From NCBI RefSeq assembly GCF_044324875.1, contig NZ_CP172185.1: 64,000 nt of DNA. One strand, given 5' to 3'. This document shows, piece by piece, positions 612-11,040 of this stretch (its first letter is position 1; each line of letters begins with the position of its first letter). A model generated the notes under the pieces. It did not search any database, had not been told where the DNA came from, and saw nothing but the letters and a program-made list of their open reading frames with translations. Made by a program: the position numbers and the translations under genes. This DNA comes from Escherichia coli (GTDB lineage: Bacteria; Pseudomonadota; Gammaproteobacteria; Enterobacterales; Enterobacteriaceae).

Positions 612-1730
612 TTAGAACTGATAAACCAGACCTAAAGCGACAATATCATCGGTAGAGATGCCGTTGGCAGCGTAGAAGCTGTCATCTTCATCCAACAGGT
701 TGATTTTATAGTCAACGTAGGTGGACATATTTTTGTTGAAATAGTAAGTCGCGCCAACATCGGCGTATTTAACCAGATCTTTATCACCGTCGGTACCGAC
801 CAAATCCTTGCCTTTAGACATCAGGAAAGAGACTGCCGGACGCAGCCCAAAATCGAACTGATACTGCGCAGTAACTTCAAAGTTCTGGGTTTTGTTGGCA
901 ATCGTATTTGTTGAATCACCGTAAGGTGTCATGTTACGCGTTTCAGAATACATGGTCGCCAGGTAGATATTGTTAGCATCGTATTTTGCCCCGGCAGTCC
1001 AGGCGTCAGCCTTATCGCCTTTTGCGGTAGAGAATTCAGCCTGCTGGTTAGTGCGATCGGAGCTGGTATAGGCGGCACCAAAACTCATGCCCATACCTAA
1101 GTCGTAGGTAGTGGAGATGCCAAAACCGTCGCCATTGGCGTTCTTAATGTTTCGATCACCACCGTTTGCGGTACCTTCTTGCTCATGGGTGACCTGGTTT
1201 TCATTCGCGCCCTGGTACTGTAACGCAAAATTCAGACCATCAACCAGACCGAAGAAATCAGTATTACGATAGGTTGCTACGCCATTGGCTCGACCGGTCA
1301 TATAGTTATCGGCTTTGGTATAAGAGTCACCACCGAATTCCGGTAGCATATCGGTCCAGCCTTCGATGTCGTACATTACGCCATAATTACGACCATAGTC
1401 GAATGAACCCAATTCACCAAATTTCAGACCGGCAAAAGCAAGACGAGTCCAGGAATCACCTTTATCACCTTCAGAGCCATTAGCCTGCACGTTATATTCC
1501 CACTGGCCATACCCAACCAGTTGATCCGTGATTTGCGTTTCACCCTTAAAACCAAAACGCACATAAGTTTGATCACCATCACTATTGGCATTATCAGAAA
1601 AATAATGCAGGCCATCAACTTTGCCATACAGATCTAATTTGTTGCCGTCTTTATTATAAACTTCGGCTGCATGTGCAGCACCTGCGGCGAGCAGGGCAGG
1701 AATTAAAAGTGCCAGTACTTTGCTTTTCAT
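612..1730 (-). CDS. ompN: outer membrane porin N
   Basis: 372-aa ORF with signal peptide [21 protein letters not shown] and the OmpC/OmpF-type porin start [17 protein letters not shown]-terminal F typical of beta-barrel porins; intrinsic terminator hairpin at about 583..606. Confidence 0.9.
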
Positions 1731-1958
1731 TGAATAAATCCTTTAGTTATTTTATTTGCCTTTTCATCCCCATTTTGGGGAGTGAAAGCATCCTAAAGGA
1801 GAAGTTCAGTTAGCCGATAAATATCATTTGTTACGCCTTAAGTAAAACCTTAATCAAATAATTCTTCTGAAATGATAATAAGTCTGGTGAATGTATTGAA
1901 GATAATACATACAAAATAAAAATTATACTTTTAATTTGCTATACGTTATTCTGCGCGG

Positions 1959-2067
1959 GTTATATGCCTTTATTGTCACAGATTTTATTTTCTGTTGGGC
2001 CATTGCGTTGCTACTGATTTTCCAACATATAAAAAGACAAGCCCGAACAGTCGTCCGGGCTTTTTTT
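1959..2067 (+). ncRNA. micC: MicC small regulatory RNA (ompC-targeting, Hfq-dependent)
   Basis: Sequence gttatatgcctttattgtcacagattttattttctgttgggccattgc...caagcccgaacagtcgtccgggcttttttt matches the MicC sequence as I remember it, ending in a hairpin plus T-run; lies in the ompN-ydbK intergenic region as in K-12. Confidence 0.85.
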
Positions 2068-2096
2068 TAGAATTGGATAATTCTTATCCAGAGCAT

Positions 2097-5000
2097 TTAA
2101 TCGGTGTTGCTTTTTTCCGCTTTTCCGGCCATTTGTGCCAGGAAGTCATAGCGTTTTTGCAAATCAGCTGCAGCATCTTTCCATAACTGCTCTGCCACTT
2201 CTGGCTGCTGCGAATTCAGACGACGGAAACGTTGCTCATGAAGTAACGTTTCTTCCAGTGCTTCTGACGGCGGGCGTGAATCCAGTGCCAGCGGCAGTTT
2301 GCCTTCATCGGCTCGACGTGGATCGAAGCGATATAGCGGCCAGAAGCCGGTGGCAGTGAGTTGGCGCATCTGGTCGTGACTGAGTGCCAGATCGTAACCA
2401 TGCTCTTCACACGGGCTATAAGCGATGATCAGCGATGGTCCCGGATACGCTTCTGCTTCCTGAATCGCTTTCACTGTCTGGTTCAGCTGTGCACCAAGAG
2501 ATATCTGCGCCACATAAACATGACCGTACATCATCATACTGACGCCAAGATCTTTACGCGCTTTACGTTTGCCGTGCTCGCCAAACTTAGTCACCGCGCC
2601 AAGCGGCGTGGCTTTTGACGCCTGACCACCGGTATTGGAATAGCATTGCGTATCCAGCACCAGAATGTTGACGTTTTCCGTCAAACTCAATACATGATCC
2701 AGACCGCCAAAGCCGATATCGTAAGCCCAGCCGTCGCCACCAATCAGCCAGATTGATTTTTCCACCAGTGCATCTGCGTCACGTAGCAGTTCATGTGCTT
2801 CGGCAACATCGTTGAGTTGCTGGCGTAAAGCTGCGACCTGTTCTCGACGAACCTCTGGCGTGGCGTCTGATTTCAACGCAGTCAGTAATTCCGCCGGGAT
2901 TTTATCGGCAAATTGATCCAGCAGACGCAGCACGCGGACACGGTGTTGATCGACCGTCAGGCGGAAACCAAGGCCAAATTCGGCGTTATCTTCAAATAGC
3001 GAGTTCGCCCATGCCGGTCCACGACCGTTGGCATCGGTGGTATACGGTGTAGAGGGCAGGTTACCGCCATAAATTGAAGAACAGCCGGTGGCGTTAGCGA
3101 TCAACATCCGGTCACCATAGAGCTGAGTCAGCAATTTAATATACGGCGTCTCGCCACAACCGGAGCAAGCACCTGAATATTCAAACAGTGGTGTAATCAG
3201 CTGCGATGTACGAATATCAATACGTTCCAGTTTGCTACGGTCGATTTCTGGGAGGTTGAGGAAGAAATCGTAATTGATTTTCTCTTCTTCGACATGTTCC
3301 AGGCGAGACATCATATTGATGGCTTTAATCTCTGGATTCTGACGGTCTTTCGCCGGGCAAACTTCGACGCACAGGTTACAACCGGTGCAATCTTCCGGAG
3401 CCACCTGCAAGACATATTTCTGCCCGCGCATATCACGCGATTTCACATCCAGCGAATGCAGGCTGGCAGGGGCGTTTTCCATCGCTTCAGGCGGTACCAC
3501 TTTTGCGCGAATAGCTGAGTGTGGGCAAGCAGCGACGCAGTGGTTACATTGGGTACAGAGTTCCTCTTTCCAGATGGGGATCTCTTCGGCGATATTGCGT
3601 TTTTCCCAGCGCGTGGTGCCCATCGGCCAGGTGCCGTCTGGCGGCAGCGCCGAAACGGGGAGGGCATCACCAAGCCCGGCGAGCATCGCCGCGGTAACGG
3701 TTTTCACGAAATCAGGAGCGGCATCGGAAACCACAGGCGGTCGATTGGCGCTGTGCGGATTAACCGGCTGCAACGGAACTTCTTCTACGGATTCACGCGC
3801 CAGCGCCAGAGCCTGCCAGTTGCGCTCCACCAGATCCTGACCTTTGCTACTGTAACTTTTGGCAATCGCACCCTGCAATTCTGCGAGGGCGCTATCGCCA
3901 GGCAGAATTTGCGTCAGATGGAAAAAAGCCATCTGCATGACGGTATTAATACGGGCCGCCAGGCCACATTCGCGGGCGATTTTCGCCGCGTTAATCACAT
4001 AGAAGCGCGCTTTTTTCTGATTTAACACGGCCTGAACTTCTTGCGGCAAGCGCGACCACACTTCATCTGCGCTGTACGGCGTGTTGAGCAGGAAAATGCC
4101 GCCAGGTTTTAAACGCTCAGCCATCTGATATTTATCGATAAACTGCAACTGGTGGCAGCCAACAAAATCAGCCTGGGAAATGAGATAAGCGGAACGAATC
4201 GGCTGTTCGCTCACGCGAAGGTGAGAAACCGTCAGGCCGCCCGCCTTTTTGGAGTCGTAAACAAAATAGCCCTGTGCGTACCACGGCGTGGAATTACCGA
4301 TAATCTTGATATTGTTTTTGGTCGCGGAAACGCTGCCATCACTACCAAGGCCATAAAACAAGGCTTCCAGTTTCGCCGAGTTTGGCAGGGTGTTTTCCGG
4401 CAACGGCAGTGACAGATTGGTTACATCATCGTAAATACCAACCGTAAAGCGCGCTTTCGGTTTAGCCGCGTTGAGCTCGGCAAATACCGCCAGTACACAG
4501 TCCGGGCCAAATTCTTTGGATGAAAGACCATAGCGCCCACCAATGACACGGGGCAGGGTTTCGCGCTCGCCATTATTAAAGGCTTCTGCCAGTGCGGTCA
4601 TCACATCCAGATAGAGCGGTTCTGCCTGGGCACCGGGTTCTTTGGTTCTGTCCAGTACCGCCACGCTGCGTACGGATCCCGGCAGAGCTTGCAACAAGTG
4701 TTTGGCGGAGAAGGGACGGTACAGGCGAACTTTCAGCACGCCGACTTTTTCGCCACGGGTTAGCAATTCATCAACCACTTCTTCACAGGTGCCAATGGCA
4801 GAGCCCATCAGGATAATCACCCGTTCCGCTTGCGGATGCCCGTAATACTCAAACGGCTGATACTGACGACCTGTCGCGGCAGCGAAATCATTCATCGCCT
4901 GTTCAACATGGTCGTAAACTGCGTTGTACCACGGGTTGGTGGCTTCACGTGACTGGAAGTAGGTGTCCGGGTTAGCCGAGGTACCGCGAATCACCGGATG

Positions 5001-5621
5001 CTCCGGATTCAGCGCGCGGGCGCGATGAGCATCAATTTCGGCCTGCGGCATCAGTTCAAGAATCGTGTCATCGGCCAGCGGGACAATTTTATTGATCTCG
5101 TGGGACGTGCGGAAACCATCAAAGAAATGAATAAATGGCACGCGACTCTTCAGCGTCGCGATGTGCGAAATAAGAGCAAAGTCTTGCGCTTCCTGGACGT
5201 TTGCTGCACACAACATCGCGCAACCCGTCTGGCGCACCGCCATAACGTCGGAATGATCGCCAAAAATAGAGAGTGCATGTGTGGCAACGGTACGTGCCGC
5301 TACATGCAGGACAAATGGCGTCAGTTCGCCTGCCAGTTTGTACAGCGTCGGGATCATCAGCAGCAAACCCTGCGATGACGTAAACGATGTTGAAAGGGCA
5401 CCCGTCTGCAAAGCGCCATGCACGGTAGCGATAGCACCCGCTTCCGACTGCATTTCAACCACGCGTGGTGTGTCTCCCCAAACGTTCTTCAAGCCGTTTC
5501 CGGCCCAGGCATCAGCCTGTTCTGCCATCGTGGAACTGGGGGTAATAGGGTAGATGGCGATAACTTCACTGGTGCGAAACGCCACCGAAGCAACCGCGCC
5601 ATTACCGTCAATAGTAATCAT
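2097..5621 (-). CDS. ydbK: pyruvate:flavodoxin/ferredoxin oxidoreductase (PFOR, NifJ-like)
   Basis: 1174-aa ORF; N-terminal MITIDGNGAVASVAFR; 4Fe-4S ferredoxin motifs CTQCNHCVAACP and CTGCNLCVEVCP; thiamine-diphosphate-domain motif GGDGW. Confidence 0.9.
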   Translation of the reverse strand: MITIDGNGAVASVAFRTSEVIAIYPITPSSTMAEQADAWAGNGLKNVWGDTPRVVEMQSEAGAIATVHGALQTGALSTSFTSSQGLLLMIPTLYKLAGELTPFVLHVAARTVATHALSIFGDHSDVMAVRQTGCAMLCAANVQEAQDFALISHIATLKSRVPFIHFFDGFRTSHEINKIVPLADDTILELMPQAEIDAHRARALNPEHPVIRGTSANPDTYFQSREATNPWYNAVYDHVEQAMNDFAAATGRQYQPFEYYGHPQAERVIILMGSAIGTCEEVVDELLTRGEKVGVLKVRLYRPFSAKHLLQALPGSVRSVAVLDRTKEPGAQAEPLYLDVMTALAEAFNNGERETLPRVIGGRYGLSSKEFGPDCVLAVFAELNAAKPKARFTVGIYDDVTNLSLPLPENTLPNSAKLEALFYGLGSDGSVSATKNNIKIIGNSTPWYAQGYFVYDSKKAGGLTVSHLRVSEQPIRSAYLISQADFVGCHQLQFIDKYQMAERLKPGGIFLLNTPYSADEVWSRLPQEVQAVLNQKKARFYVINAAKIARECGLAARINTVMQMAFFHLTQILPGDSALAELQGAIAKSYSSKGQDLVERNWQALALARESVEEVPLQPVNPHSANRPPVVSDAAPDFVKTVTAAMLAGLGDALPVSALPPDGTWPMGTTRWEKRNIAEEIPIWKEELCTQCNHCVAACPHSAIRAKVVPPEAMENAPASLHSLDVKSRDMRGQKYVLQVAPEDCTGCNLCVEVCPAKDRQNPEIKAINMMSRLEHVEEEKINYDFFLNLPEIDRSKLERIDIRTSQLITPLFEYSGACSGCGETPYIKLLTQLYGDRMLIANATGCSSIYGGNLPSTPYTTDANGRGPAWANSLFEDNAEFGLGFRLTVDQHRVRVLRLLDQFADKIPAELLTALKSDATPEVRREQVAALRQQLNDVAEAHELLRDADALVEKSIWLIGGDGWAYDIGFGGLDHVLSLTENVNILVLDTQCYSNTGGQASKATPLGAVTKFGEHGKRKARKDLGVSMMMYGHVYVAQISLGAQLNQTVKAIQEAEAYPGPSLIIAYSPCEEHGYDLALSHDQMRQLTATGFWPLYRFDPRRADEGKLPLALDSRPPSEALEETLLHEQRFRRLNSQQPEVAEQLWKDAAADLQKRYDFLAQMAGKAEKSNTD

Positions 5622-10713: not shown

Positions 10714-11040
10714 ATGATGAAGAGAAATTTAATGCTGTGTTTTGTCATTAATGCCTTATTTAGCACCAGTGCGATGGCTCTGACGCTGAATGACGCTCGA
10801 ACTCAGGGGCGTGTTGGCGAAACGTATAATGGTTATCTGGTTGCATTAAAGGCGGATACCGAAACACAGATGTTAGTCAAAAGGATTAATGAATCGCGTA
10901 ATAAGAGCTATCAACAACTCGCCATGAAAAATAATCTGCCGGTTGCGGAAGTGGAAAAATTGGCGGGGCAAAAACTGGTAGCAAAAGCTAAGCCTGGAGA
11001 ATACATTCGCGGGATAAACGGGATGTGGTTGCAAAAATAA
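10714..11040 (+). CDS. ydbL: periplasmic protein YdbL (DUF1318)
   Basis: Reading frame of ORF 10636..11040; start placed at ATGATG (10714), 4 bp after the ynbE stop, giving 108 aa with signal peptide MMKRNLMLCFVINALFSTSAMA. Confidence 0.8.
   Translation: MMKRNLMLCFVINALFSTSAMALTLNDARTQGRVGETYNGYLVALKADTETQMLVKRINESRNKSYQQLAMKNNLPVAEVEKLAGQKLVAKAKPGEYIRGINGMWLQK

What the first reader, a model, noticed from the sequence alone, without database searches (positions are those of the whole stretch)
1959..2067. Two conserved Hfq-dependent small RNAs (MicC and RydC) recognised by sequence
Neither small RNA appears in the ORF track. Both match the sequences I remember and sit in their expected intergenic positions (micC in ompN-ydbK, rydC at 39118..39181 in cybB-ydcA). 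They are useful anchors for judging which intergenic regions are ancestral and which are acquired.
Basis: partly seen in the sequence, partly recalled or inferred. Interest (0 to 1): 0.2.

Follow-up and report, generated by a model that had tools for sequence, protein, structure and literature searches.

The report
Known sRNA genes micC and rydC
The two stretches are ordinary copies of the well-studied E. coli regulatory RNAs MicC and RydC in their usual places, and the only unusual feature is an IS1 element inserted about 155 bases upstream of rydC.

Summary
An Rfam scan of the whole window gives MicC (RF00121) at 1956..2076 on the + strand, 126.1 bits against a gathering score of 90, E 1.4e-19. 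It gives RydC (RF00505) at 39118..39181 on the - strand, 92.5 bits against 48, E 5.2e-17. RydC is 64/64 identical to K-12 rydC. MicC differs from K-12 at two loop positions (2007, 2012) and has one U fewer in its tail.

Both lie in the K-12 gene order: ompN<-micC->ydbK and cybB->rydC<-ydcA. The MicC seed pairs with the K-12 ompC leader (-47..-14) and the RydC seed with the K-12 cfa leader (-109..-99). Both pairings beat all 300 shuffled controls. The two RydC pseudoknot helices and the MicC terminator are intact. The MicC central stem covaries across 30 enterobacterial loci.

The cybB-ydcA spacer is not purely ancestral, because it holds an IS1 (39337..40104, 9-bp duplication GATTCGATA). No junction-spanning match was listed among 5,426 complete E. 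coli genomes. The core rydC promoter is untouched.

These are already-known genes of low interest.

The parts
1959..2068 (+). micC gene (MicC sRNA, about 109-110 nt)
   Evidence: Rfam RF00121, 126.1 bits vs gathering 90. Aligns to K-12 micC b4427 with 2 substitutions and one T fewer in the tail.
1959..1980 (+). MicC 5' seed (nt 1-22), antisense to the ompC leader
   Evidence: Identical to K-12. RNAduplex against the K-12 ompC leader gives -26.5 kcal/mol at -47..-14; 0 of 300 shuffles do as well, z = -5.2. A 22-bp duplex is described in PMC5745476.
1993..2027 (+). MicC central hairpin (stem nt 35-40 with 64-69; loop carries the two differences from K-12 at 2007 A>G and 2012 C>T)
   Evidence: Rfam consensus structure. 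On 31 sequences, 5 of 7 stem pairs change on both sides and 84.8% of cells are paired; slid controls reach 28-50%.
2039..2068 (+). MicC Rho-independent terminator: stem 2039-2048 with 2053-2062 (one A.C mismatch, as in K-12), then U8 tail. Also scores as a minus-strand terminator 35 nt after the ydbK stop.
   Evidence: Folds; RNAalifold consensus with 99% of cells paired; minus-strand terminator-like site 2062..2039.
1775..1958 (+). micC promoter region, equivalent to the 184-nt fragment that drives micC-lacZ in K-12
   Evidence: The primer sequences in PMC5745476 map to these ends. The whole 228-nt ompN-micC spacer (1731..1958) has 5 differences from K-12 (4 substitutions and one 1-base indel), of which 4 fall inside this fragment. 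No strong sigma-70 consensus was found by the scan.
612..1730 (-). ompN (porin), divergent upstream neighbour of micC
   Evidence: ORF; K-12 annotation; Porin_1. The same arrangement is seen in 24 of 30 other loci.
2097..5621 (-). ydbK/nifJ (pyruvate:flavodoxin oxidoreductase), convergent downstream neighbour of micC
   Evidence: ORF; annotation. Present downstream in 29 of 30 other loci.
39118..39181 (-). rydC gene (RydC sRNA, 64 nt; 65 if the next U at 39117 is counted)
   Evidence: Rfam RF00505, 92.5 bits vs gathering 48. 64/64 identical to K-12 rydC b4597. Identical in 4063 of 5426 E. coli genomes.
39169..39180 (-). RydC 5' seed (nt 2-13)
   Evidence: RNAduplex against the K-12 cfa leader gives -17.7 kcal/mol, pairing at -109..-99; 0 of 300 shuffles do as well, z = -3.9.
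39141..39170 (-). RydC pseudoknot helix 1 (nt 12-18 with 35-41)
   Evidence: Exact 7-bp complement GACCCGU/ACGGGUC; Rfam consensus stem; G37 and G39 of helix 1 are required for stability (PMC4337610).
39125..39157 (-). RydC pseudoknot helix 2 / terminator hairpin (nt 25-33 with 49-57), followed by the U-rich tail 39118-39124
   Evidence: Exact 9-bp complement CGCCUGUAC/GUACAGGCG, interleaved with helix 1. It is the minimum-free-energy hairpin, -14.4 kcal/mol.
39187..39192 (-). rydC -10 box, a perfect TATAAT at -11..-6, with no recognisable -35
   Evidence: Read from the sequence. The same description is given for rydC promoters in PMC11340327.
39337..40104 (+). IS1 inserted in the rydC-ydcA spacer, flanked by the 9-bp target duplication GATTCGATA (39328-39336 and 40105-40113)
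   Evidence: IS1 end sequence; IS1 transposase NF033558, E 1.8e-42; K-12 is continuous across the site; no junction-spanning match listed in the search of complete E. coli genomes.
38541..39107 (+). cybB, convergent neighbour; its stop lies 10 nt from the rydC 3' end
   Evidence: ORF; K-12 annotation.
40129..40302 (+). ydcA, the other flank of the rydC spacer, intact but cut off from its upstream DNA by IS1
   Evidence: 57-aa ORF; K-12 annotation.

Best explanation
The window carries the chromosomal genes for two known trans-acting enterobacterial sRNAs.

MicC (1959..2068, +) is transcribed divergently from ompN and ends at a Rho-independent terminator that also faces the end of ydbK. Its single-stranded 5' end (nt 1-22) pairs with the ompC mRNA leader just upstream of the ribosome-binding site and blocks 30S binding. 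This lowers OmpC porin synthesis. The U-rich internal stretch and the terminator U-tail are the expected Hfq contact sites.

[quoted passage not shown] It folds into an H-type pseudoknot that leaves nt 1-11 free. That seed pairs about 100 nt upstream of the cfa start codon in the long cfa mRNA isoform and stabilises it, which raises cyclopropane fatty-acid synthase.

Shown here: family membership, sequence identity with K-12, synteny, structural elements, and seed complementarity to the K-12 targets. Inferred from the literature: transcription, Hfq dependence, and the regulatory outcome. The IS1 155 nt upstream of rydC most likely leaves rydC function unchanged.
For: Rfam scores are far above gathering for both families, with full-length model matches.

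RydC is 64/64 identical to K-12 and identical in 4063 of 5426 complete E. coli genomes. MicC differs from K-12 only at nt 49 and 54, in the apical loop, and by one tail U. The exact or near-exact allele (>=99%) occurs in 85 complete genomes and in 4 of 6 public loci that share the window's exact OmpN.

Gene order matches the K-12 annotation. The porin-micC-ydbK arrangement recurs in Escherichia, Citrobacter, Superficieibacter and Pseudocitrobacter loci.

Seed-target duplexes: MicC/ompC -26.5 kcal/mol, z -5.2; RydC/cfa -17.7 kcal/mol, z -3.9. In both cases 0 of 300 shuffles do as well, and the sites lie at the published positions (PMC5745476, PMC4337610).

Structure: the two interleaved RydC helices are present. 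The MicC terminator is 99% paired and its central stem covaries. The Hfq-contacting U23/U24, U46/U47 and the U-rich 3' tail of RydC are present (sequence read against PMC4337610). The perfect TATAAT is at -11..-6 (PMC11340327).
Against: Nothing in the sequence argues against it. The limits are these. Expression, Hfq binding and regulation cannot be tested from DNA. The targets ompC, cfa and hfq lie outside the window, so pairing was tested against K-12 sequences, and with seeds identical to K-12 that is close to a K-12-versus-K-12 test. The invariance of the MicC seed across the 30 collected loci is by construction, because they were found by searching for that seed. The promoter scan found no sigma-70 consensus upstream of micC. 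The rydC upstream region differs from K-12 at four positions and is truncated by IS1 at -156. The reporter used to define YieP repression carried 171 nt upstream (PMC11340327), so 16 distal nt of that fragment are displaced here.
Confidence: 0.97

Rival explanations
1. The genes are present but rydC regulation is altered by the adjacent IS1. An outward-facing hybrid promoter (a -35 in the IS1 left end and a native -10) could read into rydC and yield a 5'-extended transcript. Alternatively, the insertion could displace an upstream operator, so RydC would be mis-expressed compared with K-12.
For: IS1 lies at 39337..40104 with a clean 9-bp duplication. A promoter-like site, TTGGCA-18 nt-TATGTT, lies on the minus strand at 39350..39321, spans the junction and points at rydC. 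Hybrid promoters created by IS1 ends are known; this is from my own knowledge (Prentki et al. 1986) and was not checked here. The 171-nt rydC reporter fragment of PMC11340327 extends 16 nt beyond the insertion point.
Against: The match is only 9 of 12 with a long 18-nt spacer, and the scan expects about 1.0 such site by chance in this stretch. Sequence upstream of the core rydC promoter is little conserved between species (PMC11340327). The 155 nt next to rydC are intact. A 5'-extended RydC would bury the seed and would probably be inactive, not a new regulator.
Confidence: 0.07
2. One or both stretches are decaying remnants: sequence-conserved but no longer functional sRNA genes in an IS-laden, Shigella-like genome that is undergoing reduction.
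For: The window carries three IS1 copies and an IS256-family element. ydbA and ydbD are split by IS1, and the fea/tyn/paa block is missing. The MicC allele carries two substitutions and a shorter U tail relative to K-12.
Against: RydC is base-for-base identical to the functional K-12 RNA. The MicC changes lie in a loop that varies freely among species. The seed, stem, terminator and 8 U residues are intact. The same or a near-identical MicC allele (>=99%) is present in 85 complete E. coli genomes.
Confidence: 0.02
3. The stretches encode small proteins, not RNAs. Mechanical ORFs 1995..2186 (+, 63 aa) and 39078..39239 (-, 53 aa) overlap them.
For: The ORFs exist in the six-frame list.
Against: The ORFs use TTG or arbitrary starts and run across terminators and into neighbouring genes on the other strand. 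The conservation pattern is that of RNA: seed and stems are conserved, loops are free, and indels are not in multiples of three. Covariance models score both far above threshold.
Confidence: 0.01

Closest known systems
MicC sRNA of E. coli K-12 (micC, b4427; Rfam RF00121)
   Same: Same locus (ompN-micC-ydbK), same strand relations, identical 5' seed nt 1-22, and the same terminator including its A.C mismatch. 107 of 109 nt are identical.
   Different: A49G and C54U in the apical loop of the central hairpin (2007, 2012). U8 instead of U9 in the tail. Five differences (4 substitutions, one 1-base indel) in the 228-nt ompN-micC spacer.
RydC sRNA of E. coli K-12 / Salmonella (rydC, b4597; Rfam RF00505; Hfq co-crystal described in PMC4337610)
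   Same: 64/64 nt identical to K-12. Same pseudoknot helices, seed, conserved UU steps, U-rich tail and perfect -10 box. Convergent with cybB.
   Different: Four substitutions in the 155 nt upstream of +1. A 768-bp IS1 separates the gene from the rest of the spacer and from ydcA.
MicF sRNA (micF, divergent from ompC)
   Same: Same design: a porin-repressing antisense sRNA encoded divergently from another porin gene, acting through a 5' seed near the target's ribosome-binding site (PMC5745476).
   Different: Different sequence family, target (ompF) and locus. No MicF hit in the window.

Membership tests
MicC (Rfam RF00121) | Covariance-model score at or above the curated gathering score, over the full model | tested here: met
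   126.1 bits vs 90, model 1-123/123, E 1.4e-19.
MicC (Rfam RF00121) | 5' about 22 nt complementary to the ompC mRNA leader next to the ribosome-binding site | tested here: met
   Duplex -26.5 kcal/mol at -47..-14 of K-12 ompC, z -5.2, 0 of 300 shuffles. Caveat: the K-12 ompC was used because this genome's ompC is outside the window.
MicC (Rfam RF00121) | Position between a divergent ompN-type porin gene and convergent ydbK/nifJ | tested here: met
   The same order is seen in other genera.
MicC (Rfam RF00121) | Central hairpin and Rho-independent terminator with a U tail | tested here: met
   terminator 99% paired; central stem covaries at 5 of 7 pairs.
MicC (Rfam RF00121) | Binding to Hfq and dependence on it; repression of OmpC | not testable with these tools
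   Known for the K-12 RNA (PMC5745476 and references in it). Needs experiments in this strain.
RydC (Rfam RF00505) | Covariance-model score at or above the curated gathering score, over the full model | tested here: met
   92.5 bits vs 48, model 1-64/64, E 5.2e-17.
RydC (Rfam RF00505) | H-type pseudoknot formed by two interleaved helices that leave the 5' end free | tested here: met
   nt 12-18/35-41 (7 bp) and nt 25-33/49-57 (9 bp) are exact complements in interleaved order. The fold is described in PMC4337610 and PMC3985669.
RydC (Rfam RF00505) | 5' seed complementary to the long cfa 5' UTR about 100 nt upstream of the start codon | tested here: met
   Duplex -17.7 kcal/mol at -109..-99 of K-12 cfa, z -3.9, 0 of 300 shuffles. 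The K-12 cfa was used.
RydC (Rfam RF00505) | Hfq contact elements: U23/U24, U46/U47 and the U-rich 3' tail | tested here: met
   All are present in the sequence printed. Their roles are taken from PMC4337610.
RydC (Rfam RF00505) | Position downstream of cybB and convergent with it, in the cybB-ydcA spacer; perfect -10 box and no -35 | tested here: met
   PMC11340327. The spacer is interrupted by IS1 155 nt upstream of +1.
RydC (Rfam RF00505) | Hfq-dependent stability, activation of cfa, repression by YieP | not testable with these tools
   Literature only (PMC4337610, PMC11340327).

The most novel reading that the evidence does not exclude
The lineage-specific IS1 insertion 155 nt upstream of rydC rewires RydC expression. 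It could do this through the junction-spanning hybrid promoter (TTGGCA-18-TATGTT, 39350..39321, minus strand) or by displacing distal upstream DNA, so that RydC, and through it cfa and membrane cyclopropanation, escapes normal YieP control in this IS-rich strain.
Probability: 0.05. Interest if true: 0.3.

Novelty: already known. Interest (0 to 1): 0.08.

Why it matters
It matters little beyond annotation. MicC and RydC are textbook Hfq-associated sRNAs, and finding them intact in their usual loci is expected for any Escherichia or Shigella chromosome. They do serve as reliable ancestral landmarks. Using them, the window can be read as the K-12 uspF-patD stretch with lineage-specific changes: three IS1 copies, one IS256-family element, loss of the fea/tyn/paa block, and a 1.5-kb insert between hrpA and ydcF. 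There is one practical lesson for the scan. An intergenic region that holds a conserved sRNA can still contain acquired DNA, as the IS1 beside rydC shows.

Tried and rejected
1. Finding the source organism. An exact search for the rydC-side IS1 junction in 100,044 species-representative genomes found nothing. The best complete E. coli genomes are only 97.9-98.9% identical. Loci that share the window's exact OmpN are 98.8-99.4% identical. The nearest representative found through the MicC seed, Escherichia sp. MOD1-EC7003, is 94.5% identical. The strain stays unidentified. The IS load suggests a Shigella-like lineage, but this was not shown.

2. RNAalifold on the MAFFT alignment of 31 MicC sequences recovered only the terminator. 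The central stem had to be tested as a named structure.

3. The sigma-70 scan found no promoter for micC. It also missed the rydC promoter because there is no -35. The rydC -10 box was read directly from the sequence.

4. The terminator scan missed the plus-strand MicC terminator, because an A.C mismatch makes its loop too long for the rule. It reported only the minus-strand version. The fold shows the plus-strand hairpin.

5. My first Python call failed on a file-name assumption.

6. The small-protein and pseudogene readings were considered and rejected; see the rival explanations.

Full report
**Observation.** An Rfam 15 scan of the whole 64-kb window at gathering thresholds returns exactly three hits.
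- MicC (RF00121) at 1956..2076 on the + strand: 126.1 bits against a gathering score of 90, E 1.4e-19, model positions 1-123 of 123.
- RydC (RF00505) at 39118..39181 on the - strand: 92.5 bits against 48, E 5.2e-17, model positions 1-64 of 64.
- A sok/hok family hit at 40519..40670 on the - strand.

1959 is the G that begins K-12 MicC, and 2067 lies inside the terminal T run 2061..2068. 39118..39181 is the Rfam RydC hit to the base.

**Comparison with the reference.** The K-12 MG1655 record annotates micC (b4427, +) between ompN (-) and ydbK (-). It annotates rydC (b4597, -) between cybB (+) and ydcA (+), followed by hokB/mokB/sokB and trg. The window has the same genes in the same order and orientation:
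- ompN 612..1730 (-)
- ydbK 2097..5621 (-)
- cybB 38541..39107 (+)
- ydcA 40129..40302 (+)
- hokB 40375..40524 (-)
- trg 40923..42563 (+)

Base-by-base alignment shows RydC identical to K-12 at 64 of 64 positions. MicC is identical except for A>G at 2007 (nt 49), C>T at 2012 (nt 54), and eight T's instead of nine in the tail.

Across 5,426 complete E. coli genomes the RydC sequence is found at >=99% identity in 4,063 and is present in 5,411. The window's MicC allele is found at >=99% in 85 genomes and at 95-99% in 4,825. RefSeq lists no feature under these matches in most genomes. That is an annotation habit, not evidence of absence.

**MicC anatomy.** Nucleotides 1-22 (1959..1980) form the seed. 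Against the K-12 ompC leader they form a duplex of -26.5 kcal/mol at -47..-14 relative to the start codon, with a contiguous run at about -30..-15. None of 300 shuffled seeds does as well (z = -5.2). This is the 22-bp duplex near the ompC start that blocks 30S binding, as summarised in PMC5745476.

To test structure independently of Rfam I collected 30 loci from other species by searching for the seed. They come from Escherichia, Salmonella, Citrobacter, Superficieibacter and Pseudocitrobacter. I aligned them with the window copy. The invariance of the seed in this set is by construction and proves nothing. The 3' terminator was not part of the query, and it is nearly invariant and 99% paired.

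The central stem runs from window nt 35-40 to nt 64-69, that is 1993..1998 with 2022..2027. It shows changes on both sides at 5 of 7 tested pairs and is 84.8% paired. For the whole tested structure (central stem plus terminator), the slid controls reach only 28-50% paired cells against 93.1%, and no shuffle reaches the observed covariation score. The two substitutions relative to K-12 fall in the apical loop, which varies freely among species.

The terminator stem (2039..2048 with 2053..2062) has one A.C mismatch, the same as in K-12. It also scores as a terminator on the minus strand, 35 nt after the ydbK stop, so it probably serves both genes; this is an inference.

In every collected locus with enough flank, ydbK/nifJ lies convergent downstream (29 of 30). 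An OmpN-type porin lies divergent upstream in 24 of 30. The two Salmonella loci are among those where none was found.

The promoter fragment used in PMC5745476 maps to 1775..1958. Four of the five differences from K-12 in the ompN-micC spacer fall inside it. That paper reports silencing by H-NS and induction by beta-lactams or sigma-E depletion. No sigma-70 consensus was detected by the simple scan.

**RydC anatomy.** The RNA has two exact internal complements: nt 12-18 with 35-41 (GACCCGU/ACGGGUC) and nt 25-33 with 49-57 (CGCCUGUAC/GUACAGGCG). Their order is interleaved, which gives an H-type pseudoknot with a free 5' end. This is the fold reported in PMC4337610 and PMC3985669.

G37 and G39 of helix 1, U23/U24, U46/U47 and the U-rich 3' tail are the elements that PMC4337610 shows to contact Hfq or to be needed for stability. 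All are present (sequence).

Seed nt 2-13 pair with the K-12 cfa leader at -109..-99 (-17.7 kcal/mol, z = -3.9, 0 of 300 shuffles). This is the site through which RydC stabilises the long cfa isoform (PMC4337610, PMC11340327).

Upstream of +1 (39181) there is a perfect TATAAT at -11..-6 (39187..39192) and no recognisable -35. PMC11340327 describes rydC promoters in just this way. The same paper identifies the GntR-family protein YieP as the repressor.

The cybB-ydcA spacer is not intact. A 768-bp IS1 lies at 39337..40104. Its terminal sequence occurs three times in the window, and its transposase matches NF033558 at E 1.8e-42. It is flanked by a 9-bp direct duplication, GATTCGATA, at 39328..39336 and 40105..40113, and K-12 is continuous across the site.

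The insertion lies 155 nt upstream of the rydC start and 15 nt upstream of the ydcA start codon. A 100-nt probe spanning the junction brought up no junction-spanning match in the 5,426 complete E. coli genomes. Only 13 genomes cover 80% or more of it, and the eight of these listed are 88%-identical matches at unrelated IS1 sites. No species-representative genome has the junction either. The insertion is therefore recent and specific to this lineage.

[quoted passage not shown] I therefore expect no effect on rydC.

A weak promoter-like site (TTGGCA in the IS1 end, 18-nt spacer, TATGTT in native DNA; 9 of 12 matches) spans the junction and points toward rydC. About one such site is expected by chance in this stretch, so I give the idea that it changes RydC expression a probability of only about 5%.

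**Wider context.** A local BLAST against K-12 shows the window collinear with K-12 1,435,149-1,517,003 at 92.6-97.7% identity, with these differences:
- The feaR-feaB-tynA-paa block is absent, and ydbL joins a ydbA/BigA-type autotransporter gene at about 11.0-11.4 kb.
- That autotransporter gene is split by an IS1 at 15664.
- An IS256-family element sits at about 18.4-19.7 kb.
- ydbD is split by an IS1 ending at 22809.
- A 1.5-kb segment without family hits lies between hrpA and ydcF (33295..34836).
- K-12's IS609 is absent.

This explains why micC and rydC are 37 kb apart here and 54 kb apart in K-12. The source strain was not identified; see 'tried and rejected'.

**Verdict.** Both the observation and the interpretation are correct. 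These are the known genes micC and rydC, intact, in their ancestral positions and with all sequence-level hallmarks of function. Expression, Hfq dependence and regulatory effect are inferred from the literature on identical or near-identical RNAs and were not tested. Novelty: already known. Interest: low. The only addition is the lineage-specific IS1 beside rydC, which probably has no effect on it.

Noticed in passing
window 39337..40104 (TSD 39328..39336 and 40105..40113): IS1 inserted in the rydC-ydcA spacer with a 9-bp duplication GATTCGATA. It lies 155 nt upstream of the rydC +1 and 15 nt upstream of the ydcA ATG, so ydcA is cut off from its native upstream DNA. No junction-spanning match was listed among 5,426 complete E. 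coli genomes.
   Followed up: yes
window 39350..39321 (- strand): Promoter-like site TTGGCA-18 nt-TATGTT formed by the IS1 left end plus native DNA, pointing toward rydC. It is a weak match (9 of 12), and about one such site is expected by chance in this stretch.
   Followed up: partly
window 40519..40670 (- strand): The Rfam 'sok' hit (109.7 bits vs 59) lies on the hokB/mokB mRNA strand and ends at the hokB start codon. The hokB ORF (40375..40524) and mokB ORF (40415..40582) are intact. In K-12 the SokB RNA itself is annotated on the opposite strand.
   Followed up: partly
window 15664..~16431 (+) and ~22042..22809 (-): Two further IS1 copies. One splits a ydbA/BigA-type autotransporter gene (11442..15668 and 16509..18299). 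The other splits ydbD (20748..22046 and 22858..23727).
   Followed up: partly
window 18416..19730: Insertion absent from K-12 that encodes an IS256-family transposase (ORF 18488..19696, NF033543, E 1.5e-127), lying between ydbA and pdxI.
   Followed up: partly
window ~11038..11442: The K-12 block feaR-feaB-tynA-paaZ..paaY (about 19 kb) is absent, and ydbL is followed directly by the ydbA-like gene. This accounts for most of the shorter micC-rydC distance: 37 kb here against 54 kb in K-12. The best-matching complete E. coli genomes (e.g. WCHEC040047) list ydbH, the autotransporter gene and ydbD under a match that covers 92% of the query in about its own length, which suggests the same layout.
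   Followed up: partly
window 33295..34836: A 1.5-kb segment between hrpA and ydcF with no counterpart in K-12. Its ORFs (130, 152 and 125 aa) have no NCBIfam match.
   Followed up: partly
window 37387..38388 (- strand): gapC is an uninterrupted 333-aa ORF here, whereas it is annotated as a pseudogene in K-12.
   Followed up: no
window 51623/51624: K-12's IS609 (1,503,161-1,504,908) is absent, and ydcL and ydcO are adjacent.
   Followed up: no
window 2039..2062: The MicC terminator hairpin also scores as a minus-strand intrinsic terminator (tail GTCTTTTTAT) 35 nt after the ydbK stop codon, so it is probably bidirectional.
   Followed up: partly
whole window: The source strain was not identified. 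Identity is 92.6-97.7% to K-12 and at best 97.9-98.9% to any complete E. coli genome (phylogroup-D-like strains such as 042). There are four IS copies within about 25 kb, a Shigella-like load, but this assignment is unproven.
   Followed up: partly
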